The notes under the pieces are model-generated. The model was not told where the DNA came from, made no database searches, and worked only from the letters and a program-made list of their open reading frames with translations. 33,238 nucleotides of DNA. It comes from a phage. The DNA is taken from the NCBI GenBank assembly GCA_018175035.1, contig GCA_018175035.1_4099.2; one strand, 5' to 3'. Shown here one piece after another: positions 6,354 through 32,444 of the stretch; position 1 is the first letter of the stretch, and each line of letters begins with the position of its first letter. Made by a program: the position numbers and the translations under genes.

Positions 6354-6617
6354 ATGAATATTAAAGATAGATTACAATTACTATACACTATTGAACAGGC
6401 TGCTTTTGAACTTGTTAATAAAATCTCCGAAGAACTTCCCAAAGGAACTATAGTTCGTGTAATTGAGAGGGATTATGAATCTGGAGAAATTGAAGAACTA
6501 GTACTAACCGTGAATAAAGTAACATACTATGAATCTGAGTTGGCTATCCAATGTATATCGGAAGATGGTAAAATATACTATTATGACACTGGTGTAGATA
6601 TAGAGGTAATAAAATGA
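6354..6617 (+). CDS. Hypothetical small protein
   Basis: ATG 6354 directly after upstream TAA, GGTGGAAA upstream; track start 6309 would overlap upstream gene by 44 nt. Confidence 0.5.
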   Translation: MNIKDRLQLLYTIEQAAFELVNKISEELPKGTIVRVIERDYESGEIEELVLTVNKVTYYESELAIQCISEDGKIYYYDTGVDIEVIK

Positions 6618-7756
6618 CCCTTTTACAAATATATGAAGATTTAATGCACTTATGTAATACAAACGATGCGTTTTTTTATGTGGATCATAAAAGTCCTGCT
6701 GGTGGTACGTATCGTGTATTCAGTTATCGTCTAGCATCATACACTGATTTCATGCAACCAAATGCGTTGGAAACCCGTGGCTCTATGTGGGAAATTGATG
6801 AAGAAGGTGACATGATACGTTGTGCAGCACGTACAATGAAAAAGTTCTTCAATGCTTACGAGAATCCTGCTACAATGTTCCCTGCTAACACCACATGCGA
6901 TGACATTGCGGTAGTGATGCCTAAGTTGGATGGTTCGATTATCAGTACTTATCGTGATAATGATGGTGAGATTCGTTGTAAATCACATACTGCATTGTAT
7001 TCTGACCATGCGATTAACAGTACTCGACTTATTAACGAGAACCAGAATTTGTACCAGTACATCGACGAAGCGGAACGTTTAGGTTACACAGTTAATATGG
7101 AGTATACAAGCCCAGAGTACCGAATTGTATTACCATATCAGGTAGAACAACTGTTTGTACTGAACGTTCGACATCGTGTGAGTGGTGAGTTGCTATGTGG
7201 TAAAGCACTACGTGATAAGTTTCCATGTCTTGCACAGTACAGTACTAATATGACTGGAAAAGATATTCATCACACTTTTCCGGTACGAAATACCTTCCGT
7301 GAAAGCGTGGAGGAAGTTCATAAAATGCTTGATATTGAGGGTTTTGTGTGCATCCTAAATAATGGGACAATGTGTAAAATAAAGACTGACTGGTACAGTT
7401 CATTACATCTTACAAAAGATAGTATTATTATTGATTCTCATTTATATGAAGCAGTATTAAATGGTTCAAGTGATGATTTAAAACAATTGTTCAGTACTGA
7501 TGAATATGCTATGCAAAAGATATTAAGAATGGAACAATTGGTATTTTCGTGCTATAATGCATTACAAGATGAAGTAGAAAGCTTCGTCAAGGAACACAAG
7601 CACTTGGAGCGAAAGGAATTCGCAATGAAGGTTCAGGAGTGTTTAACTAATGAACTGAATCGTCAGGGCTTGGCCTTTGCAATGTATAACAATAAGAAAG
7701 TTGATTACAAAGAGACTCTTATAAAATACATGAAAATTGTACTAAAGGATTTTTAG
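6614..7756 (+). CDS. rnlA: RNA ligase 1 (T4 Rnl1 / gp63 family)
   Basis: N-terminal region closely resembles T4 Rnl1 as I recall it (FFY..D...G.TYR.FSY..ASY.D...P.ALE.RG...E.D....R...R.M.KFFN..ENP.TM); KxDGS nucleotidyl-lysine motif (PKLDGS); ~380 aa. Confidence 0.9.
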   Translation: MTLLQIYEDLMHLCNTNDAFFYVDHKSPAGGTYRVFSYRLASYTDFMQPNALETRGSMWEIDEEGDMIRCAARTMKKFFNAYENPATMFPANTTCDDIAVVMPKLDGSIISTYRDNDGEIRCKSHTALYSDHAINSTRLINENQNLYQYIDEAERLGYTVNMEYTSPEYRIVLPYQVEQLFVLNVRHRVSGELLCGKALRDKFPCLAQYSTNMTGKDIHHTFPVRNTFRESVEEVHKMLDIEGFVCILNNGTMCKIKTDWYSSLHLTKDSIIIDSHLYEAVLNGSSDDLKQLFSTDEYAMQKILRMEQLVFSCYNALQDEVESFVKEHKHLERKEFAMKVQECLTNELNRQGLAFAMYNNKKVDYKETLIKYMKIVLKDF

Positions 7757-8852: not shown

Positions 8853-9785
8853 ATGCCAACTATTACACTAACAGTTGGATTACCTGGGTGTGGTAAAACC
8901 ACATGGGCAGTTCAAGAAATTAAAAATGCCAAATCCAAGACTATCAACATCAACCGTGATGATATTCGTGAATCTATGGCTGGGTCACATGATGCTTACA
9001 AATTCAACGATGCTAATGAGCAGTACGTAACTAATTTACAGTTCAGTGCAGCAAATTCAGCAGCAGAGAATGGTTGGAACATCATCATATCCGATACAAA
9101 CCTTAAACAACATTTCCGTAATCTCTGGAAAGTATGGGCTAAAGATAATGGTTATGATTACAAAGAAAAGAACTTCTATGATGATTTTGTACCTAATGAA
9201 GACCGTGGTGCAGATGTTCATGAATTCTTTAAGATTAAAGAGTTCGTAAAACTTTGTAAGAAATATAACCTCCAGCGTGAGCGTTCAGTACAAGATGATA
9301 TCATTGACACAATGGCAGATACGTACTATTATAGTAAGGCATTACACATTGGTTACTATGGTAATTCACGCGAAGCTGCTATCATCGTTGATATCGATGG
9401 AACTCTTGCTCATAAATGGGGTCGTAATCCTTACGATGAAAGTACTGTTCTTCAGGATACACCTGATGAAGAAGTTATTTTGTCTATTATCGCTGAAGCA
9501 GTTTTTCATAAACGCAAGATTATCGTCATGAGTGGGCGTACTGAAGGGTGTCGTGCTGATACCGAACAGTGGCTTAAGAATTGGGGTGTTCCTTACGATG
9601 CATTGTTTATGCGAGATATCGATGATAAACGTCCTGATGATGTTGTAAAATTCGACCTGTACATGAAAAATGTGGTTGATCATTACGATGTTAAAAAGGT
9701 ATATGATGACCGCGATCAAGTTGTATTCATGTGGCGTAAGCTACTTGGGTTGAAAGTTTTCCAAGTGGCTGAAGGAAATTTCTAA
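8853..9785 (+). CDS. pseT: Polynucleotide 5'-kinase / 3'-phosphatase (T4 PseT/Pnk family)
   Basis: AAGGAG SD; N-terminal P-loop GLPGCGKTT with NINRDD; C-terminal HAD phosphatase motif DIDGTL; C-terminus ...DDRDQVVFMWRKLLGLKVFQVAEGNF resembles T4 Pnk as I recall it. Confidence 0.9.
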   Translation: MPTITLTVGLPGCGKTTWAVQEIKNAKSKTININRDDIRESMAGSHDAYKFNDANEQYVTNLQFSAANSAAENGWNIIISDTNLKQHFRNLWKVWAKDNGYDYKEKNFYDDFVPNEDRGADVHEFFKIKEFVKLCKKYNLQRERSVQDDIIDTMADTYYYSKALHIGYYGNSREAAIIVDIDGTLAHKWGRNPYDESTVLQDTPDEEVILSIIAEAVFHKRKIIVMSGRTEGCRADTEQWLKNWGVPYDALFMRDIDDKRPDDVVKFDLYMKNVVDHYDVKKVYDDRDQVVFMWRKLLGLKVFQVAEGNF

Positions 9786-13205: not shown

Positions 13206-13207
13206 TA

Positions 13208-14235: not shown

Positions 14236-14463
14236 ATGAAAGTAATTCAAGTTATGGTAGAAAAATACCAAACTGAAGATGGTCGTATTTTTGATTCAGC
14301 TAAACAAGCTGAACACCATGAACGTATTATTTCGGGTGCACGTAAAGTATGTCCTACATGTAATGGAACACAACAAGTACCGTCAGAAGATTACCGCAGC
14401 TTTTATGCTTGTCCACACTGTGATGGGAAAGGCTACGTAGAAAAACAAGAGGTATGGAAATGA
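14236..14463 (+). CDS. Small zinc-ribbon protein (CPTC...CPHC)
   Basis: ATG with AAGGAAA SD; two CxxC pairs. Confidence 0.55.
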   Translation: MKVIQVMVEKYQTEDGRIFDSAKQAEHHERIISGARKVCPTCNGTQQVPSEDYRSFYACPHCDGKGYVEKQEVWK

Positions 14464-14873
14464 AATTGTATTGTTTAACTAATATGTACTGCCAAGGTGT
14501 CCAAGCTGGTATTCAAGCATTCCATGCTGGTGTTAAACTAATTAAAGAATATGAAGGTACTGCTTTCAGTACTATTATTGATGAATGGTACTATGAACAC
14601 GAAACTATTGTAGTACTAAATGCTGGTGGACATGATAAGTTAAATTCTTATTATAACAACCTTAGCAAACAGGGAAAAGTTCCGTTTGCCAAATTCAATG
14701 AAGCTGGATTGAATGATGCTATTACCTGTGTAGCAGTACTGTGTACGTCTGAAATGATTGAAGACATGGCTGTTATGCGTATGAATCTTCCTGCTGGTGA
14801 TCAACTAATGCAAGTAAAATATGGTGCATTGTTTGACACACTAAAAGCAATCAGTACAATGAGGACTATTTGA
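14460..14873 (+). CDS. Hypothetical protein
   Basis: ATG 14460 with AAGAGG SD at 7 nt (ATGA overlap); track start 14454 has no SD spacing. Confidence 0.55.
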   Translation: MKLYCLTNMYCQGVQAGIQAFHAGVKLIKEYEGTAFSTIIDEWYYEHETIVVLNAGGHDKLNSYYNNLSKQGKVPFAKFNEAGLNDAITCVAVLCTSEMIEDMAVMRMNLPAGDQLMQVKYGALFDTLKAISTMRTI

Positions 14874-16083: not shown

Positions 16084-17502
16084 ATGAGCATTTTAGCAAT
16101 TCTTGAAAGCATTAAAAATACTAGCAGTACACTAGGCAAAAAAGCTATTCTTGAACAAAATAAAGATAATGTAACTTTACAAAAAGTACTGAAATATACA
16201 CTAGACCCTTCTATCGTTAGTGGCTATAAGAAGCTCCCTGCCGCTGATGACGTATATCAACATATGACGTTAGATGAAGCAATTGATAAGCTAGAATGCA
16301 TTTACAAGCGTGATGTGACAGGAAATGCGGGGCGTGATTTCATTGCTTCAGTACTGGGTTCAGTATCAGAAGATGATCAAGAAGTTCTCCGTAAAATGCT
16401 TACTAAAAACCTTGATTGTGGTATTCAAGAAAAGAACTGCAATGATGTATTTGGTAAAGGCTTTATTAAAGACGAACCATATATGCGTTGTTCTTTGATT
16501 GACAAAAAGACTGCAAAGAACATCAACTTCAAAGATTATGGTTACGCTATATCAGAAGTGAAAATGGATGGTCAGTACTTGAACCACGTTGTCATTAATG
16601 GTTCATTAACTTCTACATCCCGTAATGGTAAACTATACGACTTCCTGGGTTGTCGTGATGGTGAGATGGCAGGTCTTGCTCACATCATCCAAAGTAAAGA
16701 TGAACGTTTTAGTAGTGGTGTAGTCTTTATGGGTGAAGGTGTAGTACTGGACAATGATGGAGAAACCATTCTCCCACGCACTACTGGCAATGGTATAATT
16801 CAGAAAGCTGGAAAAGATAGTATCAGTCAGAATGAAGCAATGCGTACTGTATTTGTTCTATGGGATGTTGTTCCATATGATGCATTTTGTGAAGGTGTAT
16901 GGGATGTAAAACGTAAAGAACGTCGCGAGATCTTAGTAGATGCAATTAACGAACTCAGTAGTGATTTTGTTCGTATGGTTGGATTCCGTAAAGTTCTAAA
17001 CATCAAAGAAGCATTTGAGTACAATAGTGAACTAATGAGCGTAGGTGAAGAGGGTTCAGTACTGAAATGTGAAGATGGTATCTGGAAATCTCACACTTCT
17101 CCTAAGCAATTGAAAATGAAACTCAAAATGCAACTGGACTTGCGTATTGTTGGTTTCAATGAAGGTGAAGGTAAGCGTAAAGGTAGCCTTGGTTCTTTAC
17201 AACTGGAAAGTGCTTGTGGTACATTGAAAGTTAATGTAGGTACTGGAATTAAAGAGAAAGACGCAGAATGGACGTTTAAAACCATTTGGGAAAGAATGCA
17301 AGAACTCATCGGTCAAGTAGTAACAGTAGAGTGCAATGATATTGTATTCGATAAGCGTACTGGTGAGCCATCACTGTTCTTACCAGTGTTTATTGAATTT
17401 AGATTTGACAAAAACACTTGTGATGATTATACTCGTATCTTAGAAATTCGTGAGAGTGCAGTTGAAGTGTTCTCAAACAGTATTATTGACGCATTAGGTT
17501 AA
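16084..17502 (+). CDS. ATP-dependent DNA ligase (T4 gp30-like)
   Basis: N-terminus ...STLGKKAILEQNKDN resembles the T4 ligase N-terminus as I recall it; adenylation motif I KxDG (VKMDGQ); ~470 aa; AAAGGA SD. Confidence 0.9.
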   Translation: MSILAILESIKNTSSTLGKKAILEQNKDNVTLQKVLKYTLDPSIVSGYKKLPAADDVYQHMTLDEAIDKLECIYKRDVTGNAGRDFIASVLGSVSEDDQEVLRKMLTKNLDCGIQEKNCNDVFGKGFIKDEPYMRCSLIDKKTAKNINFKDYGYAISEVKMDGQYLNHVVINGSLTSTSRNGKLYDFLGCRDGEMAGLAHIIQSKDERFSSGVVFMGEGVVLDNDGETILPRTTGNGIIQKAGKDSISQNEAMRTVFVLWDVVPYDAFCEGVWDVKRKERREILVDAINELSSDFVRMVGFRKVLNIKEAFEYNSELMSVGEEGSVLKCEDGIWKSHTSPKQLKMKLKMQLDLRIVGFNEGEGKRKGSLGSLQLESACGTLKVNVGTGIKEKDAEWTFKTIWERMQELIGQVVTVECNDIVFDKRTGEPSLFLPVFIEFRFDKNTCDDYTRILEIRESAVEVFSNSIIDALG

Positions 17503-17521
17503 CCATTTATTGGAGGTAATT

Positions 17522-18313
17522 ATGAAATTTGTTGTAACATCTGATGTACACGGTGGGACTGATTACCTCCATAGTGGTGATTACAGTGATACAGTACTGA
17601 TTATTGCTGGGGACTTCGATGAAGTTAAACGCAGTCGTTACCGTACTGGTATCGAATCACTATGTAAGCAGTTTAAGAATGTAGTACTGGTTCCTGGCAA
17701 TCATGAATATTATGGTTCCAATATCCACAAAACGCATAAAGTACTGTCCGATATACAAGATGAGATTCCAAATTTCATCTTTTTGCAAAACAAATTTGTA
17801 TGGCTGGATGGAGTACTGCTTGTTGGTAGTACTCTGTGGACAGACTTCGATAAAGGTAATTCTTTGACGAAGTTTGATGCTCGTCAGAAGATGAACGATT
17901 ACAAACATATCCGTCATGGAACAACATCAGAGCCTTGGCGTAAGAAACTGACACCAGATGATACTGAGTTTATGCATCACAAAGATAAACAATTTATCAA
18001 AAATTCTATTGACACAGTTCGCTTTATGCATGATAATGATTTCAAGGTCATCGTGGTTACCCATCACGCACCAAGTTATCAAAGTATTTCACCAAAATAT
18101 AAAAATGATTCACTGAATGGTTGTTACTGTTCCGATATGGATCAGTACATTGAAGATTTGGGTGCTGATGTTTGGATTCATGGTCATGTTCATAGTAGCT
18201 TTGACTACCACATTGGTAAGACACGTATCATTTGTAATCCACGAGGCTATGAATCATACAGTGGAGCTTGTGAGAATTTTGATTACAATCCTAAATTTGT
18301 ATTTGAAATTTAA
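17522..18313 (+). CDS. Calcineurin-like metallophosphoesterase
   Basis: Motifs SDVHGG, AGDFDE, PGNHEYY, GHVH; ATG 17522 after GGAGGT (track start 17510 is TTG). Confidence 0.75.
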   Translation: MKFVVTSDVHGGTDYLHSGDYSDTVLIIAGDFDEVKRSRYRTGIESLCKQFKNVVLVPGNHEYYGSNIHKTHKVLSDIQDEIPNFIFLQNKFVWLDGVLLVGSTLWTDFDKGNSLTKFDARQKMNDYKHIRHGTTSEPWRKKLTPDDTEFMHHKDKQFIKNSIDTVRFMHDNDFKVIVVTHHAPSYQSISPKYKNDSLNGCYCSDMDQYIEDLGADVWIHGHVHSSFDYHIGKTRIICNPRGYESYSGACENFDYNPKFVFEI

Positions 18314-19179: not shown

Positions 19180-19875
19180 ATGGTTGAACAATTCATGTTT
19201 GGTGGTTATGCTAATGGCGAAGTACGTAACATTTCTATTCCTTACGTAGTTGAGAAAGTTAATGGTTCAGAACGTACATATGATCTAGCATCTCGTATGA
19301 TGCAAGACCGTATCATTTTCCTTGATACTGATTTCAATGATCAAATGGCACATATCATCAAACAACAATTGGTATGGTTAGACTCACAAGGTGATTCCCC
19401 TATTACATTCTACATTAGTTCACCGGGTGGTTCAGTACACGCAGGTTTGGGTATTGCAGATGTTGCTAAGTCTTGTATTTCCCCAATTCGCACTGTAGTT
19501 ATGGGTTATGCAGCATCAATGGGTTGCTATACACAATCTGTTATTGGGACTAAAGGTTTCCGTTTAGGTGGTAAACGCTCATACTTCATGTGTCACCAAG
19601 TAAGTTCTGGTACACAAGGTCTAATTACTGACCAGAAGATTTCACTTAAACATTCTGATGCCCTAAACACTCTATTGACTAAAGAAATTGCAGAAGCAGT
19701 TGGTGTATCACACGAACAACTACTGAAAGATGCGGATCGTGACCTGTGGTTGAACGCTGAAGAAGCACTCGAATACGGTGAACATGGTTTCATTGATGGT
19801 ATCATCCTCGGACCACGCAACGAAGAAGGTAAGTATCTCGTCAAACGTCGCGGTGGCGTTGAAGAGTGGGTCTAA
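19180..19875 (+). CDS. clpP: ClpP-family serine protease proteolytic subunit
   Basis: Strong ClpP pattern: YSRMMQDRIIFL, SSPGGSV.AG, catalytic Ser in GYAASMG, His in MCHQ, Asp in DRDLW, C-terminal EALEYG. Confidence 0.85.
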   Translation: MVEQFMFGGYANGEVRNISIPYVVEKVNGSERTYDLASRMMQDRIIFLDTDFNDQMAHIIKQQLVWLDSQGDSPITFYISSPGGSVHAGLGIADVAKSCISPIRTVVMGYAASMGCYTQSVIGTKGFRLGGKRSYFMCHQVSSGTQGLITDQKISLKHSDALNTLLTKEIAEAVGVSHEQLLKDADRDLWLNAEEALEYGEHGFIDGIILGPRNEEGKYLVKRRGGVEEWV

Positions 19876-21338: not shown

Positions 21339-21834
21339 TACTAATATCTGGTTAGATAACATAATCAAGACATTAGAATTAATTAAACTTACATTACAAA
21401 AAACTACAGATATTGAAATTAATATTAAAAAAGAAATATTAAACTATTATCATAGAAACAACTATAGCACGTTTATCTCTAAATTAATTTATGGATTATA
21501 TGATATTGAAGATATTTGCATCGGTTACAGTACTGGTATTTGCTTCACTGTTAATGGTTTAAAAAATGATTTAAATTTCAGACTTTCCGATGAAGAGCAA
21601 GATTTTCGTAGATTTTGTGATAATATTATGGATACAGATAAAATTACATTTGTTATTGAATTAAATCAAACGTGGTCTACATATGCAGATAAACCATTTG
21701 AAATTAATGAAACAGATGTGTTAAACTATATTCGAGTTATGAAAATTCATGATTTGTGTAAAAACGCATTGTTAAGTATTGGAGCTTATAATGAAACATA
21801 CGACTTGGTTGAAGATAGCAGAAGTAGTTGCTGA
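21310..21834 (+). CDS. Hypothetical protein (very AT-rich gene)
   Basis: ATG ORF overlapping both neighbours (29 nt upstream, 44 nt downstream). Confidence 0.45.
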   Translation: MKYTHLSIDDTNIWLDNIIKTLELIKLTLQKTTDIEINIKKEILNYYHRNNYSTFISKLIYGLYDIEDICIGYSTGICFTVNGLKNDLNFRLSDEEQDFRRFCDNIMDTDKITFVIELNQTWSTYADKPFEINETDVLNYIRVMKIHDLCKNALLSIGAYNETYDLVEDSRSSC

Positions 21835-22270
21835 GGAAAGTAAATGTATTTCACAAAAAGTTGGTTGTGTTATTGTTAAAAATAACCGAGTATTGAGTAC
21901 TGGATACAATGGTACTCCATCAAAACAACCAAATTGCTGTGATGTGAATCAACACTTAGTCAATGATGGGCGTTTTCAAGACTGGGTTAGTGATGAAGCA
22001 AAGCATGAACATCATGAGTGGAGTAATATTCATGAAATCCATGCTGAAATGAACGCTTTACTCTATAGTTCTCCTACTGAACGTCAAGGTGCTACTCTTT
22101 ACACAACACTACAACCATGTTATACTTGTTCTAAGTTGATCGCAGGTAGTGGGATTTCACGTGTAATTTATCACAAAAGTTATCCACGAACACCACCTGA
22201 AGCGATTAAAGTACTGGAAGATGCTGGGATTATTGTTAACTGCATTTATGACAAGGGTATGAATCAATGA
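21791..22270 (+). CDS. cd: Deoxycytidylate (dCMP) deaminase
   Basis: Zinc-deaminase motifs HAEMNAL and PCYTCSKLI; N-terminus ...ESKC.S.KVGCVIVKNNRVLSTGYNG resembles T4 Cd as I recall it; ATG after GGAG SD (track start 21779 is TTG). Confidence 0.85.
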   Translation: MKHTTWLKIAEVVAEESKCISQKVGCVIVKNNRVLSTGYNGTPSKQPNCCDVNQHLVNDGRFQDWVSDEAKHEHHEWSNIHEIHAEMNALLYSSPTERQGATLYTTLQPCYTCSKLIAGSGISRVIYHKSYPRTPPEAIKVLEDAGIIVNCIYDKGMNQ

Positions 22271-22521: not shown

Positions 22522-22550
22522 AAAAAAGGAGCCACAAGGCTCCTTTTTTG
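22520..22550. terminator. Bidirectional Rho-independent terminator between convergent genes
   Basis: A-run, stem AGGAGCC / GGCTCCT, loop ACAA, T-run; symmetric so functional on either strand. Confidence 0.65.
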
Positions 22551-22928
22551 TTAACCAGGGATGTTACAATAATACAAATCCCAAGGGTGATATTTCATTT
22601 CTCCAGTACTCAATTTAATTTTATGAAACTGGAATGATTCGGCAAATGCACTATCATCAATCTTAATACAAAAAGTATTTTTTGCTAAAGTTGGTGCAAT
22701 CTCTAGTGCAGTTTTAGATGCATCTAATCTGATTTTATCTTTATCAAAACTTGTTATAGTTACAAAACGATAAACATTAAAATCAGTGTCGATAAGATCG
22801 TAAACACAACTAGAACGTTGATTAAAGATGTTCAAGTTATATTTCAATTCACCGTTTATATTAGCGGCGGTTACACAAAAGCCGCCGATATTGAATGGTA
22901 ATTTACCTTGTGCTGCTATAGCTTTCAT
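22551..22928 (-). CDS. Hypothetical protein (125 aa); the only convincing minus-strand gene
   Basis: ATG preceded on the minus strand by AGAGGA at 8 nt; stop abuts the bidirectional terminator; competing + strand ORFs here lack SD. Confidence 0.55.
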   Translation of the reverse strand: MKAIAAQGKLPFNIGGFCVTAANINGELKYNLNIFNQRSSCVYDLIDTDFNVYRFVTITSFDKDKIRLDASKTALEIAPTLAKNTFCIKIDDSAFAESFQFHKIKLSTGEMKYHPWDLYYCNIPG

Positions 22929-23237: not shown

Positions 23238-23846
23238 ATGAAAAGACTATGGCTTGAGGTAGTACAAGCAGTAATGCTTCTGATGTTGATAAATTTTCCA
23301 GCCAGTGCTGGTATTGAAAGTAAAAATGTGATAAAGTACAATCCTGAAACACGTAATGTATATTTCATCTCAGATATTACGGATGGGTCACTAAAGCGTA
23401 TGATGGAGTTGTATGATAAAGAACACTATGATACCATTACCATCACATCGCCAGGTGGTGATTTTGATGCTGGGATTAAAATGGCAAACTTCGTTAGAGA
23501 CAATGGTATAAATTTAATTGTTTCTAGGTATTGCAACTCAGCATGTACTGTGGTATTCTTCAGTGTAGCTTTTGAAAAGCGATACATGATAAATCGCTCA
23601 GTACTGGGTCTTCATAACATTTCGATTAAAAGTAATGTTACTGATGGTGATAATTCATTTGTGTCTGTAAGACAGCTATCAACTTTTACCGAAGAAATGG
23701 CAACAAAGGTAGGTTTCCTTTTTTCACTATATGCAGCAAATGGAATCCCACCAGAAGTTCTATTTAGAGTTAGTCGTTCTCGTGGTGAAGATGTTGTAAT
23801 ATTAACAAAACCAGAACTGGTTTTTTACGGTTCAGTCAAACAATAA
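23238..23846 (+). CDS. Secreted (signal-peptide) ClpP/S49-like serine peptidase-fold protein
   Basis: N-terminal hydrophobic signal (LLMLINFPASAG); ClpP-like SPGGDFDAG, then CNSAC and GLHN in ClpP Ser/His positions; AAGGA SD. Confidence 0.55.
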   Translation: MKRLWLEVVQAVMLLMLINFPASAGIESKNVIKYNPETRNVYFISDITDGSLKRMMELYDKEHYDTITITSPGGDFDAGIKMANFVRDNGINLIVSRYCNSACTVVFFSVAFEKRYMINRSVLGLHNISIKSNVTDGDNSFVSVRQLSTFTEEMATKVGFLFSLYAANGIPPEVLFRVSRSRGEDVVILTKPELVFYGSVKQ

Positions 23847-23916: not shown

Positions 23917-24177
23917 ATGACAAACATCCAAAACTTGACATCTATTATTTTTTATGCTACTGTAGTAATGTATGCTACAGTTATTTTTCTAACAGTTTTC
24001 ATTTACAAAGATTATCGTAATGGCTTTATTGATCCAACTACAATGAAGTTCAATTCAAAATTCGAAGCAATAATTTATTATGTACTATCAACTTCATACT
24101 TGGTGTGCCTAATGTTGTTAGGAGCACTAATTTATATCTTATACACAACATTATTTGCAATTGGAGCTATTTTATGA
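23917..24177 (+). CDS. Small integral membrane protein (two TM helices)
   Basis: ATG ORF; hydrophobic segments. Confidence 0.5.
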   Translation: MTNIQNLTSIIFYATVVMYATVIFLTVFIYKDYRNGFIDPTTMKFNSKFEAIIYYVLSTSYLVCLMLLGALIYILYTTLFAIGAIL

Positions 24178-24767
24178 CCTGTATTATTGCACACACTGAC
24201 GGAGTAAGTTCTTTTATTGCTGGGGATAAGTTAGGAAGCAATGGATTTACAAAAACTGTTCAAACTGAGCCAAAGGTATTCGAGAAAGAATTTATCAAGT
24301 TACATGATGATGGACTAACTAGAACTAAAGAAGTAATGGCATTGGGTTATACTACATCATTTCGTATGGGTCAGTTGTTAAATTATAACCTTAATTTACC
24401 TGAACAAGATGCTAGTCAAACATTTTCACAATATTTGGTTCTTAAAGTTATTCCAATCATTCGTCAAATGTTTAAAGAAGAATGGGGTGCACGAGATGCA
24501 TCACAAGATGTAGGTGGTGGACAATTTATCATTCTCCACAATCATACAATCTATGAAGTTCAAGAAGACTTTTCAGTACTACAACCTAAAACAAGAATTA
24601 CCGCAGTAGGTAGTGGGACATATCATGCAATTGCAGCAATGCAAGCATATATTGAAGTTGAGAACGAATCTAAAAAACCACTACACGAACGTATCAAATC
24701 AATTTTTAAAATTGTTAGTGATAATGTAACAAGCGTAAGCGAAGAGTTTGATGTTTTAAAATATTAA
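24174..24767 (+). CDS. HslV/proteasome beta-subunit-like N-terminal-nucleophile hydrolase
   Basis: ATG 24174 (ATGA overlap, GGAG SD); N-terminus MTCIIAHTDG...IAGD parallels HslV MTTIVSV...IAGD with Thr at position 2; C-terminal AVGSGTYHAIAA parallels HslV AIGSGG.YA.AAA. Confidence 0.7.
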   Translation: MTCIIAHTDGVSSFIAGDKLGSNGFTKTVQTEPKVFEKEFIKLHDDGLTRTKEVMALGYTTSFRMGQLLNYNLNLPEQDASQTFSQYLVLKVIPIIRQMFKEEWGARDASQDVGGGQFIILHNHTIYEVQEDFSVLQPKTRITAVGSGTYHAIAAMQAYIEVENESKKPLHERIKSIFKIVSDNVTSVSEEFDVLKY

Positions 24768-24794
24768 AAGTACTAATATTATAAGAGAGAATAG

Positions 24795-24989
24795 ATGATG
24801 GCATACACAATTTATGAATGGGTTTTGAGTTTTTTTATAGTTTTTTCTATTGTTGTAATTTATAACAATGCTAAATGCTTATATAGAGACTTGAAATCCA
24901 ATGGTTATCACAAAGATAATAATTTTATGTATGCCTATCATATTGGAATCATTCTGTTATTATCAATATATTTAATTGTTTTTTTATAA
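24795..24989 (+). CDS. Small membrane protein
   Basis: ATG ORF; two hydrophobic segments. Confidence 0.4.
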   Translation: MMAYTIYEWVLSFFIVFSIVVIYNNAKCLYRDLKSNGYHKDNNFMYAYHIGIILLLSIYLIVFL

Positions 24990-24998
24990 GGATTGAAT

Positions 24999-25751
24999 AT
25001 GATATCAGAAAAATTTATAAGCAATGAAGGTAAAAAGCGATTACTGATTATATCAGGTGCAGGACTTTCTGTTGAAAGTGGTATGGAACCTTTTCGATTT
25101 GATGATGGTTTGTGGGATACATTTAAAATTAATGATGTATGTAACATTGCTAGTTTAACTACGAAATATCACGTTGTTCATTCCTTCTATAATACATTAC
25201 GTGTAAAATTGGGACAATGCGAACCCAATGCAATGCATTATTTTATAAAATCGTTAGAAGATCAATATGGTGATTGCTTCCTTCATATGACTTCTAACAT
25301 GGACGATCTTTATACTCGTATTGGTGGTCATGAGCTTAAACTTCATGGAAACTTGTGCGAAGTTATTGAAAATTATAGTATCAATTCCGATGATTATAAT
25401 GTTATTAACTGCGGATACGAACCATACATACCAAAACATGATGTTTTTGCTAAACCAAATGTAGTAATGATTGGAGAATATCATCGTTATGTTGATGGTA
25501 TTCGCTTACCAATTTACGAAGAACGAAATAATGTGTTGAAATCTCTTAATGAAAATGATACAGTTATTGTAATTGGTAGTAGCGATACAGTACTGGTATG
25601 GTCGAGATTAGCAGCAGCATTACCATGTTATAGTGTTAATGTTAACATTCGTAAAAATGATAATGATTTTTTGTTTAATGAAAAAGTTATCAAGCCAGCA
25701 ACCAAAGCAATACCGCATCTAGAGACTATAATTAAGGAACGTATGAAATGA
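24999..25751 (+). CDS. Sir2 (sirtuin) family protein, NAD-dependent deacylase / ADP-ribosyltransferase fold
   Basis: Sir2 motifs GAGLSVESGMEPFR (GAGxS...SGxPxFR), TSNMDDL (T/QNxDxL), LHGN, VVMIGE, VIVIGSS; no obvious 4-Cys zinc ribbon; ATG after AAGGA (track start 24993 is TTG). Confidence 0.75.
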   Translation: MISEKFISNEGKKRLLIISGAGLSVESGMEPFRFDDGLWDTFKINDVCNIASLTTKYHVVHSFYNTLRVKLGQCEPNAMHYFIKSLEDQYGDCFLHMTSNMDDLYTRIGGHELKLHGNLCEVIENYSINSDDYNVINCGYEPYIPKHDVFAKPNVVMIGEYHRYVDGIRLPIYEERNNVLKSLNENDTVIVIGSSDTVLVWSRLAAALPCYSVNVNIRKNDNDFLFNEKVIKPATKAIPHLETIIKERMK

Positions 25752-26299
25752 GTGTTAAAGAAGTTCCCTTTGGTGAATATGGCACACGTGCAAATTTTGT
25801 ATTTTGTTATTTCTTTGCAAGAAAATGCAACCCTTACAAAAACTATGAGTTGAATGATATACCAGAAGTAAATTTAGTATTACTGCAATTACGATGGGAT
25901 GGTCTTCTTGGTGGATGTGGTGGAACCGTAGAAAGTACTGATATCTCACTAGAAGATGCGTTGCGTCGTGAAGTTCAAGAAGAAATGGATTACAATATTT
26001 TTGTTTCCCATCTTCGACCACTCAAAACTTTTGAAATTTACCCAGGTGCAAACAGTCACAGTTTTAGCTATGAAGTAACCTATGACGAGTTGAAACACAT
26101 TAGAGATGGATACACTAATGCTAAACATGCAAGTGCAGAAGTTGCTGGTGTAAATTTATGTCATATTTCTCGTTATTCTAAGGGACAAAATCGAGAAGCG
26201 GGATATAATAATCTTATGACACAGAACTTCATCGGTACAGCAAAACAAGAATTGGAGTATCTGGTTCAAAAAGAAAACTTACTAATTAGTTATCTATAG
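25748..26299 (+). CDS. Putative Nudix-fold hydrolase (divergent Nudix box)
   Basis: ATGA overlap with Sir2 gene; GGCGGTVE...LRREVQEEMDY resembles Nudix box Gx5Ex7REUxEExGU with a 4-residue insertion and D in place of the last G. Confidence 0.45.
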   Translation: MSVKEVPFGEYGTRANFVFCYFFARKCNPYKNYELNDIPEVNLVLLQLRWDGLLGGCGGTVESTDISLEDALRREVQEEMDYNIFVSHLRPLKTFEIYPGANSHSFSYEVTYDELKHIRDGYTNAKHASAEVAGVNLCHISRYSKGQNREAGYNNLMTQNFIGTAKQELEYLVQKENLLISYL

Positions 26300-26308
26300 G
26301 AGTTTAAC

Positions 26309-26629
26309 ATGTCTTACTCAATGTTTTTGGATGATATTCGTGATGCAAATCTATATTATCCAAACCAAGATATGGTGGTATGTCGTGACTTTAAAAGTGC
26401 ATGTGAATATGTTATTGAAAATGGAATTCCAGCATTTGTATCATTCGACCATGACTTGGGTGATGTGAGCGAAGACGAAAAGACTGGATATTCTTTTGCT
26501 AAGTTTCTTATTGATTATATGTTTGATAATAATATTAAAGAACCGTTTGAGTACTTTGTTCACAGTAGTAATCCTGTTGGTAAAATTAATATTGAAACAT
26601 ACTTAAACAATGGATTTAACTCATTATGA
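26309..26629 (+). CDS. Receiver-like domain protein resembling the cyclic-phosphate-processing receiver (CPR) family (tentative)
   Basis: Pattern FLDDIR...SFDHDLG...TGY...HSSNPVG matches my recollection of this family; AGGAG SD 8 nt upstream. Confidence 0.45.
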   Translation: MSYSMFLDDIRDANLYYPNQDMVVCRDFKSACEYVIENGIPAFVSFDHDLGDVSEDEKTGYSFAKFLIDYMFDNNIKEPFEYFVHSSNPVGKINIETYLNNGFNSL

Positions 26630-26928
26630 TTCAAACACACATCAAAAGTCTTATTTGTACTGTTCTGTTAGGTGCAGGAGTTCTTTGGTTCGGACAGTAT
26701 CACGAGAACACTAAGCGTACCAACATTCACTACAATACCGCAGAAGTTGTTAGTTTAGGACAATGTAGCGAGTCCAAATGTTCATTTATGTATAAAACCC
26801 AAAGTGGTGAAGTACGTAATGGACTATCAAGAGAACCAGTTTCAATTGGTCAACTTGTTTACCAGGAGTGCTGGGAAGAAAAGGTTCGAGGTTCACGTTG
26901 CTATGTTGAATACGAACCAAATATGTAA
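26626..26928 (+). CDS. Membrane-anchored / exported Cys-containing small protein
   Basis: ATGA overlap; N-terminal hydrophobic helix; four Cys. Confidence 0.5.
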   Translation: MIQTHIKSLICTVLLGAGVLWFGQYHENTKRTNIHYNTAEVVSLGQCSESKCSFMYKTQSGEVRNGLSREPVSIGQLVYQECWEEKVRGSRCYVEYEPNM

Positions 26929-26952
26929 TAATCCGAGTCAATAACATTAGTC

Positions 26953-26985
26953 GAGTACAAGGATGTACTCATAACTCAAGGATGT
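26953..26985 (+). promoter_or_regulatory. Hairpin plus 9-bp direct repeat CAAGGATGT overlapping the PhoH ribosome-binding site
   Basis: Stem GAGTACA / TGTACTC with loop AGGA (26953-26970); CAAGGATGT at 26958-26966 and 26977-26985, second copy carries the SD. Confidence 0.3.
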
Positions 26986-26988
26986 TTT

Positions 26989-28428
26989 ATGAAAAAATAT
27001 ACAATTGACACAAACGTACTACTATCTGACCCTAATGCATCTATTGCTTTTGATGGTGCTGCAATCATTCTACCATTTACAGTACTGGAAGAATTGGATT
27101 CAATTAAGAGTCGTAATGTAGATGTTTCACGCGATGCTCGTGTTGCTATTCGTAACATTGAAGCAATTATTGCAGATGCATCACATGATGAGATTAGTAG
27201 TACTGGTGTTAATATTGCTGATGTTCATACCAATATGAATCCTGATAGCAAATTGTTTGTTATTACAAACGAAGAAGCTGAAGCACTAATTCGTACTAAA
27301 GGTTCAGAAGAGAAAGTTCAAACCCTTCTCAAAAGCACAGTACCTGATGATAAAATCATTCTGGTAGCTTTAGCAACAGAATCAGTACTGGTAACTCGTG
27401 ATATCAACATGCGTATCAAAGCACTAAGTTATGGTGTCGAGGTACAAGATTATCGCCATGATATTGTTATTGGTGATAGTGATTTGATTCACATTGGTCA
27501 ACACCATTTGGAAATTAATTTTTGGGAAGTATATAGCAACTTATCCAATACTAATATTCAATCCGAACAAGTTGGTCGTCGTTTGTATCATTACATTTCT
27601 AAAAGCTTGATTGAACATTTGCTTCCACAAAATCTATGCATCGGTGATTATCTATATGATGATGCAGACGTATTATTTGTGTACGAAGGTCAATCAGCAA
27701 TTGAGGAAGATGATGGAACACTAACACCAGAAGATATTTTGGTATTCCAAGATATTGGACAATCAGTAGCTTTACGTGCTAAAGTATGGGATATTAAAGC
27801 AAAGAATATCCAACAAGCACTCGCCATCAACAGTATTCTCGATCCTGATGTACATCTAACAGTACTGCTAGGTTCTGCTGGTACTGGTAAAACACTAATT
27901 ACGATTGCTACTGCATTAGAATTAGTACTGGAAAAACGTAAATACGACCGAATCATCTTCTCTAAAACTCAAGACTCACAGTTTGAAGATATTGGTTTCT
28001 TGCCAGGTTCAGAAGCAGAAAAAGTGATTCCATTCTGTGGAGCCGCAATTGACGCGTTAGAGTTTCTTCATAAAGATGATGCTAACCCACAAGGTAGTAT
28101 TGAAGAGATTATGAAACGTAATGTTATTCAATTTAAAGCACTAAACTTTGTACGTGGACGTTCATTCACCAACACTATTCTAGTAGTTGATGAATTCCAA
28201 AACATTACACCTGCACAAGCCAAAACAATCTTGACACGAGCAGGATTAAACTGTAAAGTAGTAATTATGGGTAACTTGAGTCAGATTGACAGTAAGTTTA
28301 TTAGTCCTGTTAACAGTGGTTTGACATATGTAACTGAGAAGTTTAAAGATTGGGCAGGTTGTCGTGTCATCGAACTAGAAGGTGTTGTTCGTTCACCACT
28401 TGCAGAATTTGCTGAAGAAAATATGTAA
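26989..28428 (+). CDS. phoH: PIN-domain PhoH-like ATPase (PhoH2/YlaK-type)
   Basis: N-terminal PIN-like region (YTIDTNVLLSDP...LEELD); Walker A GSAGTGKT, Walker B VVDEFQN; 479 aa. Confidence 0.85.
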   Translation: MKKYTIDTNVLLSDPNASIAFDGAAIILPFTVLEELDSIKSRNVDVSRDARVAIRNIEAIIADASHDEISSTGVNIADVHTNMNPDSKLFVITNEEAEALIRTKGSEEKVQTLLKSTVPDDKIILVALATESVLVTRDINMRIKALSYGVEVQDYRHDIVIGDSDLIHIGQHHLEINFWEVYSNLSNTNIQSEQVGRRLYHYISKSLIEHLLPQNLCIGDYLYDDADVLFVYEGQSAIEEDDGTLTPEDILVFQDIGQSVALRAKVWDIKAKNIQQALAINSILDPDVHLTVLLGSAGTGKTLITIATALELVLEKRKYDRIIFSKTQDSQFEDIGFLPGSEAEKVIPFCGAAIDALEFLHKDDANPQGSIEEIMKRNVIQFKALNFVRGRSFTNTILVVDEFQNITPAQAKTILTRAGLNCKVVIMGNLSQIDSKFISPVNSGLTYVTEKFKDWAGCRVIELEGVVRSPLAEFAEENM

Positions 28429-28431
28429 TAT

Positions 28432-28465
28432 TGTATGGGACATTATGTCCCATACATGATATAAT
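28432..28465 (+). promoter_or_regulatory. 25-bp near-perfect palindrome (12-bp arms) overlapping a promoter with extended -10
   Basis: Arms 28432-28443 / 28445-28456 (TGTATGGGACAT-T-ATGTCCCATACA); TGaTATAAT 28457-28465; -35 position GGGACA inside the palindrome. Confidence 0.4.
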
Positions 28466-28496
28466 GTTGTTATCATAATACAGAAGGAGATATAAA

Positions 28497-28685
28497 ATGG
28501 CTAAACAACCTAAGAAAAAAGAACCAGTAGCAAAAGTTAAGAAAGAGAAAGTTATTCAATCTAAAGAACAACGTATGTACGAACAACGTAAGAGTGAAAC
28601 CCTATCCGGTCTTCAAGCTCTACGCAAACAAGGTGTACTAACTCGTGCACAGTACCGTGAACTAGTAGCTCAGAAAGGTTTTTGA
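28497..28685 (+). CDS. Small basic protein with SHOCT-like C-terminus (tentative)
   Basis: AGGAGA SD; Lys-rich N-terminus; C-terminus LSGLQALRKQGVLTRAQYRELVAQ. Confidence 0.5.
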   Translation: MAKQPKKKEPVAKVKKEKVIQSKEQRMYEQRKSETLSGLQALRKQGVLTRAQYRELVAQKGF

Positions 28686-31464: not shown

Positions 31465-32079
31465 ATGACAACATCTGAAAAGTACTGGTGGATTTTGGGT
31501 CATCCTAAATTCATAAACAAAGATATGGTTCCAGCTAGGATTGATATAGAACCTCATGATGTGTGTCCAATGACAAATCGAATTGAAGATTTCAAAGCAT
31601 TGAATACAAAGACTCAATTTTGGGTAGAATTTCTTTCACCAATGTATATTGAGCAAGACGACGAATGGGTACAAGCACATGATTATCAATTGGATTGTGG
31701 TGGTGATACGTATGAAGAGGCCATTGATGAATTATACAAAAATGTGCTAAGAACATATGGTGATTACACCCAACAAGAAGCGGACGATGAATTTAATAAG
31801 ATCCATGTAGCTATTTCGACATCATCAATTTATAATCCCACTAAAACAGTTTGGGAGGAACGACACAGTTGGTGTTCATGTGTAATCGATGAAGAAACCA
31901 AAGAAAAAATCATCGATGACATAAAAAATTTAAAAAATACAATCCAAGCCTTGCGTGCATTCATAAAGTCTTGTACAATAGAAGAACAGCAAGAGGCAAA
32001 GATACATTTGGAGAGTGAAGAATGTAAACTTTGGGTTCTAGAAAAATCACTTGAAAAGGGTATAGACTTAGACTTATGA
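31465..32079 (+). CDS. Hypothetical protein (acidic, 204 aa)
   Basis: ATG with GGGGA SD. Confidence 0.6.
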   Translation: MTTSEKYWWILGHPKFINKDMVPARIDIEPHDVCPMTNRIEDFKALNTKTQFWVEFLSPMYIEQDDEWVQAHDYQLDCGGDTYEEAIDELYKNVLRTYGDYTQQEADDEFNKIHVAISTSSIYNPTKTVWEERHSWCSCVIDEETKEKIIDDIKNLKNTIQALRAFIKSCTIEEQQEAKIHLESEECKLWVLEKSLEKGIDLDL

Positions 32080-32444
32080 ATAGTAAATTGGAGAAACTTG
32101 TTGAAGAATTACGCCGGATGCCACCTATTGAGCAAGTAGGGAACTACAAGCGGTATCGTGTGATTGCTCGTGCACTGGATAAAAAAGGTCGAGTACTGGC
32201 AACTCGCACAAATTCTTATACACAGACTCACCCAGTACAGAAGGGTTTCGCCATTCGTGCTGGGCGACCGCAAGGTGAGTTTCTTCATGCTGAAATTTCA
32301 TGTTTACTGGCTGCTCGTGCTGATGTTCATACTTTACTGATTGCACGGATAAGTAAAGATGGAATTCCTGTTCCGGCTAAACCATGTGAAATTTGCTCAT
32401 TAGCAATAAAAGAATATGGGGTGAAAGAGATTATCCACACATGA
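32076..32444 (+). CDS. Small zinc-dependent deaminase-fold protein (CDA / dCMP-deaminase / TadA-like), second deaminase in the window
   Basis: HAEISCL and PCEICSLAI about 30 residues apart; N-terminal YRVIARALDKKGRVLATRTN like the deaminase substrate-loop region; ATGA overlap. Confidence 0.65.
   Translation: MNSKLEKLVEELRRMPPIEQVGNYKRYRVIARALDKKGRVLATRTNSYTQTHPVQKGFAIRAGRPQGEFLHAEISCLLAARADVHTLLIARISKDGIPVPAKPCEICSLAIKEYGVKEIIHT

What the first reader, a model, noticed from the sequence alone, without database searches (positions are those of the whole stretch)
24999..26629. Sir2-family gene translationally coupled to a Nudix-like hydrolase and a receiver-like domain protein
The Sir2 protein has the NAD-binding motifs (GAGxS...SGxPxFR, TSNMDDL, HG, VIGSS) but lacks an obvious 4-Cys zinc module, as seen in non-canonical Sir2 proteins that act as NADases or ADP-ribosyltransferases. 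Its stop overlaps the start of a Nudix-like gene, which could hydrolyse ADP-ribose or NAD-derived products, and this is followed by a small protein with the FLDDIR / DHDLG / HSSNPVG pattern that I associate with the cyclic-phosphate-processing receiver domain. The trio suggests a phage NAD/ADP-ribose signalling or modification module, either modifying host proteins or nucleic acids or countering NAD-depleting host immunity.
Basis: partly seen in the sequence, partly recalled or inferred. Interest (0 to 1): 0.7.

Follow-up and report, generated by a model that had tools for sequence, protein, structure and literature searches.

The report
Jumbo-phage sirtuin–Nudix–cREC gene cassette
A giant E. 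coli phage carries a tightly packed operon of three NAD+/ADP-ribose-handling enzymes (a zinc-less sirtuin, a NUDT16-like Nudix hydrolase and a receiver-fold "cREC" protein); this gene set was already predicted in 2022 to repair cut RNA, but nobody has tested it.

Summary
Window 24999-26629 holds three real, tightly coupled genes. They are a Sir2 (Pfam 3.6e-20), a NUDT16-like Nudix (8e-19) and a cREC receiver-like protein (1.5e-22). A conserved 100-aa membrane protein and a PIN-PhoH gene follow.

The window is 99.8% identical to PBECO4/121Q-type jumbo coliphages. All three proteins keep their catalytic residues. The sirtuin clade has lost the Cys4 zinc site.

[quoted passage not shown] 2022. 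They predicted it to be a KptA/Tpt1-like, NAD+-dependent RNA-repair system. I found no experimental work on it.

- The same sirtuin clade sits beside an RNA ligase and cREC in rV5-like phages.
- It sits beside an RNA-repair HAD phosphatase in T5-like phages.
- Nudix and cREC are fused in some relatives.
- cREC recurs with RNA ligase and polynucleotide-kinase genes.
- Human NUDT16 is known to process ADP-ribose on RNA phosphate ends.

Two points are new. The Nudix belongs to the NUDT16 family. In relatives the cassette lies directly beside NARP2 and Acb1 anti-defence genes, which this window lacks.

Verdict: a new member of a known, computationally predicted kind. Function is untested. Interest is moderate.

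The parts
24999..25751 (+). Sir2-family protein (250 aa). It belongs to a phage clade related to class III sirtuins (CobB/SIRT5) and lacks the zinc site.
   Evidence: Pfam SIR2 3.6e-20. The best solved relative is E. coli CobB, by sequence at 3e-22 and by fold at TM 0.75-0.83. GAGxS, N100, D102 and H116 are invariant in the clade, while the Cys residues are not conserved. NCBIfam CobB models score far below their cut-offs. There is no PADLOC hit.
25748..26299 (+). NUDT16-like Nudix hydrolase (183 aa). Its start overlaps the Sir2 stop as ATGA.
   Evidence: Pfam Nudt16-like 8.1e-19 and NUDIX 4.9e-7. The best solved relatives are human NUDT16 and Xenopus X29 at about 3e-12. The catalytic residues R49, E75, E78, E79 and E131 are invariant in an alignment that includes NUDT16. 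The junction sequence is shown.
26309..26629 (+). cREC (cyclic-phosphate-processing receiver) domain protein, 106 aa.
26626..26928 (+). Conserved 100-aa protein with an N-terminal hydrophobic segment and a Cys-rich C-terminal part. Its start overlaps the cREC stop. Function unknown.
   Evidence: phrog_14661 'membrane protein' 3.9e-44. A homologue occupies the same slot in all Rak2-like relatives examined. ATGA overlap shown. No Pfam hit.
26989..28428 (+). PIN-PhoH fusion (479 aa), a predicted RNA nuclease/helicase. It always lies downstream of the cassette.
   Evidence: Pfam PIN_4 7e-20 and PhoH 7e-44. NCBIfam 'RNA 5'-3' helicase PhoH2' 2e-44, below its cut-off. It is conserved downstream in every Rak2-like locus. 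No terminator-like site was found on the + strand between about 24.0 and 28.8 kb.
6614..7756 (+). T4 Rnl1-like RNA ligase. It is context in the same window and a possible pathway partner, not part of the operon.
   Evidence: Pfam RNA_lig_T4_1 9e-16 and T4_Rnl1_C 7e-17.
8853..9785 (+). T4 Pnkp-like polynucleotide kinase/3'-phosphatase. It is context and a possible pathway partner.
   Evidence: Pfam HAD_PNKP 8.6e-44 and AAA_33 3.6e-13.

Best explanation
The cassette is an NAD+-dependent system that cleans up phosphorylated or cyclic-phosphate RNA ends. It is the 'type 1' sirtuin-centred neighbourhood of Iyer et al. 2022.

**Proposed steps (all inferred)**
1. The zinc-less sirtuin uses NAD+ to ADP-ribosylate a phosphate monoester on RNA. 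The target would be a 2'-phosphate left after a 2',3'-cyclic end is opened, or another terminal phosphate. As with KptA/Tpt1, the His-activated ribose 2''-OH then attacks the phosphate. This frees the RNA hydroxyl and releases ADP-ribose 1'',2''-cyclic phosphate plus nicotinamide.
2. cREC is a receiver-fold phosphoesterase with the Asp-Asp / Asp-His-Asp pocket. It opens a cyclic phosphate, either on the RNA end before step 1 or on the ADP-ribose product after it.
3. The NUDT16-like Nudix cleaves the ADP-ribose pyrophosphate, either in the free product or while it is still attached to the RNA phosphate.
4. The healed ends would be sealed by the phage Rnl1-like ligase. The biological purpose would be to undo tRNA/RNA cleavage by host anticodon nucleases and abortive-infection RNases.

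**Shown here:** the domain identities, the intact catalytic residues, the operon structure and the recurrent gene context.

**Not shown:** every enzymatic step and the substrate.
For: 1. All three enzymes look catalytically competent.
2. They are translationally coupled in the window.
3. They stay together at 47-64% Sir2 identity in relatives, while the genes upstream of them are swapped.
4. Nudix and cREC are fused into one protein in CBB/Serratia BF-type loci L011-L015 and in P0162.
5. The same sirtuin clade has RNA-end-processing neighbours in two other phage lineages.
   - In rV5-like phages the order is Rnl1-like RNA ligase, cREC, Sir2. A polynucleotide kinase and a calcineurin-like phosphoesterase are transcribed divergently.
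   - In T5-like SSP1, Sir2 is followed directly by HAD_SAK_2, the 'Swiss Army Knife RNA repair' phosphatase.
6. Across the cREC loci fetched (80 viral and 80 genomic), the recurrent neighbours are calcineurin-like phosphoesterases, T4-type RNA ligase, Pnk kinase/HAD_PNKP phosphatase, RNase H-like and RNase T nucleases, WYL regulators and Macro domains.
7. Human NUDT16 removes ADP-ribose from RNA 5'/3' phosphate ends written by PARP10 and by the KptA homologue TRPT1 (PMC6582358).
8. KptA-encoding phages (98 records) and phages with this sirtuin clade (975 records) share no record among the rows listed, and they belong to different phage groups.
9. The window also carries T4-like Rnl1, Pnkp and a PTH2-like hydrolase.
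10. Sirtuin chemistry has the same form as the Tpt1 reaction: an oxygen nucleophile attacks C1', then the His-activated 2'-OH attacks. This rests on established enzymology and is an inference.
11. The prediction was made independently in PMC9503650, section 3.7.3.
Against: - No biochemical or genetic data exist for any phage sirtuin or any cREC protein.
- The sirtuin's closest sequence and fold relatives are true protein deacylases, namely CobB, Sir2Af1 and SIRT5. Nothing in the sequence marks an RNA substrate.
- T4-type Pnkp already removes 2',3'-cyclic, 3'- and 2'-phosphates. A Tpt1-like step is therefore not obviously needed alongside Pnkp and Rnl1 (established knowledge).
- Rnl1 and Pnkp lie 15-18 kb away from the cassette in this window.
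- In three KptA-encoding phages, no cREC or Nudix sits next to KptA.
- Synteny within Rak2-like phages is not independent evidence, because those genomes are collinear overall.
- In relatives the immediate neighbours are anti-defence genes (Acb1 and NARP2), which fits a counter-immunity role equally well.
- NUDT16-like domains elsewhere are fused to Ham1 ITPase or HD_4 domains. That suggests nucleotide sanitation rather than ADP-ribose chemistry.
Confidence: 0.45

Rival explanations
1. The sirtuin is an ordinary NAD+-dependent protein lysine deacylase, a phage version of CobB. It would remodel acyl-lysine marks on host or phage proteins during takeover. The Nudix would dispose of the O-acyl-ADP-ribose by-product, and cREC would help break that product down.
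For: - The best sequence and structural matches are E. coli CobB, Sir2Af1 and SIRT5.
- The catalytic His, the N/D motif, the FGE motif and the class III Tyr (Y64) are kept.
- The wider phage clade (T5-, rV5- and KVP40-like) keeps the YNxRR motif of CobB/SIRT5.
- GenBank annotators call the gene a deacylase.
- Nudix enzymes are known to hydrolyse O-acetyl-ADP-ribose (from my own knowledge, not checked here).
Against: - This reading does not explain why the clade's neighbours are RNA ligase, cREC, Pnk and HAD_SAK_2 in three lineages.
- NCBIfam CobB and deacylase models score 85-93 bits against cut-offs of 243-320.
- The zinc module, which helps shape the peptide-binding small domain, is lost.
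- The conserved Gln of the TQNID motif is Ser/Thr/Ala in the phage clade.
- In the Rak2-like subclade the Arg of YxxR is shifted by one position.
- O-acyl-ADP-ribose is normally deacylated by Macro or ARH3 enzymes, and neither is present here.
Confidence: 0.2
2. The cassette is a counter-defence device. It would destroy NAD+-derived or cyclic-nucleotide immune messengers, or their breakdown products, working alongside Acb1 and NARP2. The Nudix would cut the pyrophosphate of ADP-ribose-based signals, cREC would open cyclic phosphates, and the sirtuin would consume or convert a signal precursor.
For: - In five or more relatives the cassette lies directly downstream of the anti-CBASS gene Acb1. 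It also lies 1-4 kb from NAMPT plus NMNAT-Nudix, which together form NARP2, a proven counter-defence pathway.
- Iyer et al. 2021 proposed cREC and Nudix as degraders of cyclic ADP-ribose-type signals.
- cREC neighbours include Macro and NMNAT-like genes in some phages.
Against: - The window's own lineage keeps the cassette but lacks Acb1 and NARP2, so the cassette works without them.
- An NAD+-consuming sirtuin has no clear role in degrading signals.
- The rV5- and T5-type contexts are RNA-repair contexts, not anti-defence islands.
- There is no experimental precedent for a cREC or a NUDT16-like enzyme acting on immune messengers.
Confidence: 0.2
3. The cassette acts on non-canonical RNA 5' caps.
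For: - The Nudix belongs to the U8 snoRNA-decapping (NUDT16) family.
- NUDT16 processes ADP-ribose on RNA 5'-phosphates.
- A PIN-PhoH RNA nuclease/helicase always follows the cassette.
Against: This rests on the family name alone. No context links the cassette to transcription or RNA decay, and cREC is left without a role.
Confidence: 0.05

Closest known systems
Sirtuin-centred phage 'RNA-repair' gene neighbourhood, type 1 (Iyer, Burroughs, Anantharaman & Aravind, Viruses 2022, PMC9503650, section 3.7.3; prototype Serratia phage BF)
   Same: It has the same phage group (Rak2-like jumbo phages) and the same sirtuin clade. [quoted passage not shown]
   Different: Here Nudix and cREC are separate genes, not fused. 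The 2H/Acb1 gene is absent. The neighbouring NAMPT and NMNAT genes are absent. The published description is purely computational and does not note the NUDT16 affinity of the Nudix.
KptA/Tpt1 RNA 2'-phosphotransferase pathway with Cpd1-type cyclic phosphodiesterase
   Same: The proposed chemistry is the same. An NAD+-dependent ADP-ribosyl transfer to an RNA phosphate releases ADP-ribose 1'',2''-cyclic phosphate, which is then hydrolysed. The phage distributions appear complementary.
   Different: The folds are unrelated: sirtuin Rossmann fold versus ART fold, and receiver fold versus 2H. The activity is not demonstrated. No cREC or Nudix lies beside KptA in the three KptA phages examined.
E. 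coli CobB / human SIRT5 (class III sirtuin deacylases)
   Same: They are the closest sequence and fold relatives. The NAD+-binding and catalytic residues are shared.
   Different: There is no zinc-binding Cys4. The TQNID Gln is replaced by Ser. The YxxR Arg is displaced in this subclade. Scores fall well below the CobB family cut-offs.
Human NUDT16 / Xenopus X29
   Same: It has the same Pfam family, the same Nudix box and the same extra catalytic Glu. NUDT16 cleaves ADP-ribose attached to proteins and to RNA phosphate ends.
   Different: Identity is about 30%. The N-terminal base-recognition region is not alignable by HMMER. The gene is phage-encoded and operonic with, or fused to, cREC.
T4 Pnkp-Rnl1 tRNA repair
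   Same: The biological logic is the same: it counters host anticodon nucleases. Homologues of both genes are in this window.
   Different: The T4 pathway needs no NAD+, no sirtuin and no cREC.

Membership tests
Sirtuin superfamily (PF02146) | Rossmann NAD+-binding motif GAGxS...G(I/M)xxFR | tested here: met
   GAGLSVESGMEPFR aligns with CobB GAGISAESGIRTFR. G20, G22, S24, S27 and G28 are invariant in the clade. Pfam scores 73 bits against a cut-off of 24.
Sirtuin superfamily (PF02146) | Catalytic His and the (Q)N(I)D motif | tested here: met
   H116 aligns with the CobB catalytic His. N100 and D102 are invariant. The Gln is replaced by Ser.
Sirtuin superfamily (PF02146) | Cys4 zinc-binding module | tested here: not met
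   Only two Cys lie in the region, and neither is conserved among 13 clade members. A conserved GY(E/N)xxxP motif takes its place. A bacterial relative (L100) still has CxxxC...CxxC.
CobB-type protein deacylase (NCBIfam equivalogs) | Score above the curated family cut-off | tested here: not met
   NF001755 scores 93 bits against 318, and NF040867 scores 85 bits against 320.
CobB/SIRT5 class III | YxxR acyl-carboxylate-binding pair | tested here: inconclusive
   Y64 is invariant. The Arg is at +4 (R68) rather than +3 in the Rak2-like subclade. T5-, rV5- and KVP40-like members keep YNxRR.
Defence-type Sir2 NADases (ThsA, DSR, SIR2-HerA and others) | Match to defence Sir2 profiles, or a defence-type fold | tested here: not met
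   No PADLOC hit. All 50 top-listed Foldseek PDB matches are canonical, non-defence sirtuins.
Nudix hydrolases / NUDT16-like (PF22327) | Nudix box Gx5Ex7REUxEExGU with the catalytic Glu residues | tested here: met
   The REVQEE helix is present. E75, E78, E79, R49 and E131 are invariant in an alignment that includes human NUDT16. Pfam scores 68.6 bits against 27. The final G of the box is Asp here.
cREC (PF20274) | Receiver-like fold with the conserved DD, DHD and S/N pocket, and no histidine-kinase partner | tested here: met
cREC (PF20274) | Cyclic-phosphate phosphoesterase activity | not testable with these tools
   This is a prediction only (PMC7824862, PMC9503650). No experimental paper was found.
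Iyer 2022 type-1 sirtuin RNA-repair neighbourhood | Sirtuin linked to Nudix, cREC and a PIN endoRNase | tested here: met
   The genes are contiguous from 24999 to 28428.
Iyer 2022 type-1 sirtuin RNA-repair neighbourhood | Linked 2H phosphoesterase | tested here: not met
   No homologue of the relatives' Acb1/2H gene is in the window. It is present directly upstream of Sir2 in L006-L008 and L011-L017.
KptA/Tpt1 RNA 2'-phosphotransferase | ART-fold PTS_2-RNA domain | tested here: not met
   The protein is a sirtuin, not an ART. The claim is functional analogy only. E. coli KptA finds none of the Rak2-like phages among the rows listed.
NARP2 NAD+ reconstitution pathway | NAMPT plus NMNAT genes | tested here: not met
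   Both are absent from the window. Both lie next to the cassette in relatives.

The most novel reading that the evidence does not exclude
The phage sirtuin would be the first Sir2-family enzyme that acts on nucleic-acid phosphate ends, making it a non-homologous replacement of KptA/Tpt1. cREC would be a new class of cyclic phosphodiesterase built on the response-regulator receiver fold. The NUDT16-like Nudix would clear ADP-ribose-phosphate adducts. In relatives where NAMPT and NMNAT sit next door, the products (nicotinamide, AMP and ribose bisphosphate) could be recycled, closing a phage-run NAD+ cycle that fuels RNA repair during host attack.
Probability: 0.3. Interest if true: 0.75.

Novelty: new member of a known kind. 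Interest (0 to 1): 0.4.

Why it matters
If the prediction holds, sirtuins gain a new substrate class, namely RNA phosphate ends. The receiver fold gains a catalytic role outside two-component signalling. Phages gain a second, NAD+-dependent route to undo host RNA cleavage.

The clade is widespread. By tblastn it occurs in 975 phage records, including T5-like, rV5-like and KVP40-like phages that are easy to work with. The question is therefore directly testable in E. coli.

The close linkage with NARP2 and Acb1 in relatives also raises a question. Phage NAD+ rebuilding may partly serve the phage's own NAD+-consuming enzymes, and not only counter NAD+ depletion by host defences.

Tried and rejected
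- **cREC or Nudix beside KptA.** I looked in three KptA-encoding phages (FBKp24, RAY, pEa_SNUABM_32) to support the sirtuin-KptA analogy. Neither gene was found, and the neighbours are mostly unannotated.
- **Defence-type Sir2 reading.** Rejected: there is no PADLOC hit and the fold is deacylase-like.
- **NAD+-rebuilding reading for this window.** Rejected: no NAMPT, NMNAT or Acb1 homologue is present.
- **Promoter scan.** It was uninformative in this AT-rich DNA, with 47 sites against 37 ± 6 expected.
- **tRNA genes.** None are in the window.
- **ORF after Sir2 in the distant L003 locus.** It is not a detectable cREC by BLASTP, HMM or Pfam.
- **Word-indexed protein searches.** They returned only close relatives of Sir2 (28) and of the Nudix (12). 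The wider picture came from tblastn and the exhaustive HMMER scan.
- **BLAST clustering of cREC neighbours.** It is insensitive for diverse phages, so the neighbour counts are lower bounds.
- **Absence of NAMPT from the whole PBECO4-type genome.** I could not confirm this. I can only say that no PBECO4-type record is among the 34 records with 60% or higher identity.
Full report
**What is there.** The window is a piece of a PBECO4/121Q-type (Rak2-like) jumbo coliphage. Positions 24000-28500 are 99.8% identical to Escherichia phages vB_EcoM_CRJP21 and E9.1, and 95.5% identical to 121Q.

Three + strand ORFs fill the finding's coordinates:
- 24999-25751, 250 aa
- 25748-26299, 183 aa
- 26309-26629, 106 aa

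All three exceed Pfam gathering scores:

| ORF | Pfam family | E-value |
|---|---|---|
| 24999-25751 | SIR2 | 3.6e-20 |
| 25748-26299 | Nudt16-like | 8.1e-19 |
| 25748-26299 | NUDIX | 4.9e-7 |
| 26309-26629 | cREC_REC | 1.5e-22 |

PHROGs agrees. GenBank records annotate the first two genes as Sir2 and nudix hydrolase, and the third as hypothetical.

- Sir2 and Nudix share ATGA.
- The Nudix stop is followed by GGAG and an ATG 9 nt later.
- The cREC stop overlaps, again as ATGA, the start of a fourth conserved ORF at 26626-26928. This ORF matches phrog_14661 'membrane protein'.
- A PIN-PhoH gene follows at 26989-28428, after a 60-nt gap.
- No terminator-like site lies on the + strand between about 24.0 and 28.8 kb.

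**Are the enzymes intact?**

*Sirtuin.* It aligns best with E. coli CobB (3e-22). An AlphaFold model (pLDDT 84.6) superposes best on CobB (TM 0.75-0.83), then on Sir2Af1 and SIRT5.
- In an alignment of 13 clade members down to 34% identity, GAGxS, N100, D102, H116 and the G159-E160 motif are invariant.
- The two Cys of the window protein are not conserved. A conserved G-Y motif replaces the second half of the zinc knuckle.
- The clade is therefore a zinc-less offshoot of class III-like sirtuins.
- It does not reach any curated CobB or deacylase cut-off in NCBIfam (93 bits against 318).
- It matches no defence-system Sir2 profile.

*Nudix.* It is a true NUDT16-family member.
- Its best solved relatives are human NUDT16 and Xenopus X29 (about 3e-12).
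- R49, E75, E78, E79 and E131 are invariant in an alignment that includes NUDT16.
- The family is small, with 237 clusters at E ≤ 1e-3 among 1.84 billion representatives.
- Elsewhere the domain is fused to cREC, to Ham1 ITPase or to HD_4.

*cREC.* It carries every family-invariant residue: D8, D9, R11, D47, H48, D49, S86 and N88.
- No solved structure matches it by sequence.

**What is already known.** Iyer et al. defined cREC in 2021 as a receiver-like domain that never occurs with histidine kinases. They predicted that it processes cyclic phosphates (PMC7824862).

[quoted passage not shown] They proposed that the sirtuin acts like KptA, removing RNA 2'-phosphates (PMC9503650, section 3.7.3).

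Serratia phage BF is a relative of this window's phage. The finding is therefore a member of a published, purely computational class. Full-text searches found no experimental study of a phage sirtuin or of cREC.

**Independent checks of the context.**

*Relatives of the cassette.* Metagenomic relatives with 47-64% Sir2 identity keep the order Sir2, Nudt16-like, cREC, roughly 100-aa ORF, PIN-PhoH. Occasional small insertions occur. In CBB/Serratia BF-type loci, Nudix and cREC are one protein.

*The same sirtuin clade in other phage lineages.* By tblastn it occurs in 975 phage records.
- In rV5-like phages it is the third gene of an operon that runs Rnl1-like RNA ligase, divergent cREC (HMM 6e-8), Sir2. 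A polynucleotide kinase and a calcineurin-like phosphoesterase are transcribed divergently.
- In T5-like SSP1 it is followed directly by HAD_SAK_2, the 'Swiss Army Knife RNA repair' phosphatase (7.5e-20).

*cREC neighbours in general.* I fetched 80 viral and 80 genomic cREC loci; the clustering used the 147 of them in which my own ORF scan recovered the cREC gene. Only the Rak2-like ones contain this sirtuin. The recurrent neighbours elsewhere are calcineurin-like phosphoesterases, RNase H-like and RNase T nucleases, WYL regulators, T4-type RNA ligase (9 viral loci), Pnk kinase/HAD_PNKP (10 viral loci) and Macro.

*The window itself.* It also holds T4-like Rnl1, Pnkp and a PTH2-like hydrolase, 10-18 kb upstream of the cassette.

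*KptA distribution.* E. coli KptA finds 98 phage records. The rows listed come from other phage groups than the sirtuin carriers, with no shared record among them. This is suggestive only, because I saw just a sample of each list.

**Two points not in the published description.**
1. The Nudix is specifically NUDT16-like. Human NUDT16 removes ADP-ribose from RNA 5'/3' phosphate ends written by PARP10 and by TRPT1, the human KptA homologue (PMC6582358). That is the type of adduct a KptA-like sirtuin would make.
2. In all the relatives above, NAMPT and an NMNAT-Nudix fusion lie 1-4 kb upstream. Together these form NARP2, which has been shown experimentally to counter NAD+-depleting defences. In several relatives the gene directly upstream of Sir2 is Acb1, the anti-CBASS 2H phosphodiesterase. 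The '2H' of the published neighbourhood is therefore Acb1-like.

The window's lineage lacks all three of these genes. In their place it has a ClpP-related protease, an HslV-like peptidase and small membrane ORFs. The Sir2-to-PhoH block is thus a unit that persists while its upstream neighbours are exchanged.

**Best explanation and rivals.**

I favour the RNA-end/ADP-ribose-phosphate processing model (confidence 0.45). Three independent lineages pair this sirtuin clade with RNA-end-healing enzymes. Nudix and cREC are fused in some relatives. NUDT16 has a matching known activity. Sirtuin chemistry maps naturally onto the Tpt1 reaction; that last point is an inference.

Against this model:
- The protein looks like a deacylase.
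- T4-type Pnkp makes a Tpt1-like step seem unnecessary.
- KptA phages show no cREC or Nudix linkage in the three loci checked.
- Nothing has been tested experimentally.

The rivals are:
- a CobB-like protein deacylase with clean-up of O-acyl-ADP-ribose (0.2);
- a counter-defence device acting on NAD+-derived or cyclic-nucleotide messengers, suggested by the Acb1 and NARP2 neighbours (0.2);
- metabolism of non-canonical RNA caps (0.05).

**Verdict.**
- The system is a new member of a known, predicted kind.
- The function is unproven but testable in tractable E. coli phages.

Noticed in passing
L005-L010 and L011-L017 (relatives); slot equivalent to window about 22.3-25.0 kb: In Rak2-like relatives, NAMPT plus NMNAT-Nudix (NARP2) lie just upstream of the sirtuin cassette, and often Acb1 (anti-CBASS) does too. 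In this window the slot instead holds a ClpP-related protease (23238-23846), an HslV-like peptidase (24174-24767) and small membrane ORFs.
   Followed up: partly
window 6614-7756, 8853-9785, 14454-14873: The same window carries a T4 Rnl1-like RNA ligase, a T4 Pnkp-like kinase/phosphatase and a PTH2-like peptidyl-tRNA hydrolase. This makes the region rich in RNA and translation repair genes.
   Followed up: partly
window 13193-13951, 17510-18313, 16084-17502: Two calcineurin-like phosphoesterases and an ATP-dependent DNA ligase lie here. Calcineurin-like phosphoesterases are also the commonest cREC neighbours elsewhere.
   Followed up: no
window 26626-26928: A 100-aa ORF with an N-terminal hydrophobic segment and several Cys is translationally coupled to cREC. 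It is conserved in every Rak2-like relative. It has no Pfam family and its role is unknown.
   Followed up: partly
window 21779-22270 and 32076-32444: Two separate dCMP/cytidine deaminase-like genes lie in one 33-kb window.
   Followed up: no
window 19180-19875, 23238-23846, 24174-24767: Three protease-like genes lie within 6 kb: a ClpP, a ClpP-related protein and an HslV-like protein.
   Followed up: no
window 22522-22549: A strong 12-bp GC-containing hairpin flanked by A and T runs looks like a bidirectional terminator. It sits between the + strand block and the lone minus-strand ORF at 22551-22928.
   Followed up: no
L100 8074-9477 and 11210-11932 (Sulfurimonas MAG): A 467-aa protein has an unknown N-terminal region fused to a C-terminal cREC. 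A sirtuin of the same clade lies 1.7 kb downstream and still has its zinc Cys pairs. McrBC and Fic genes are nearby, so this may be a defence island or a prophage remnant.
   Followed up: partly
L098-L170 (Chryseobacterium chromosomes): cREC is a conserved chromosomal gene in many Chryseobacterium species. It lies next to an RNase H-like (PF04308) gene, a calcineurin-like phosphoesterase and an RNase T-type exonuclease. WYL-WCX regulators neighbour cREC in eight other genome groups.
   Followed up: partly
P0229, P0293, P0268 (NUDT16-like relatives): NUDT16-like domains are fused to Ham1 ITPase or to HD_4 domains in some metagenomic proteins. This suggests nucleotide-sanitation roles in other branches of the family.
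   Followed up: no
L173 6309-7136 (T5-like SSP1): Two tandem DUF7415 proteins follow the Sir2 and HAD_SAK_2 pair in the T5-like phage.
   Followed up: no
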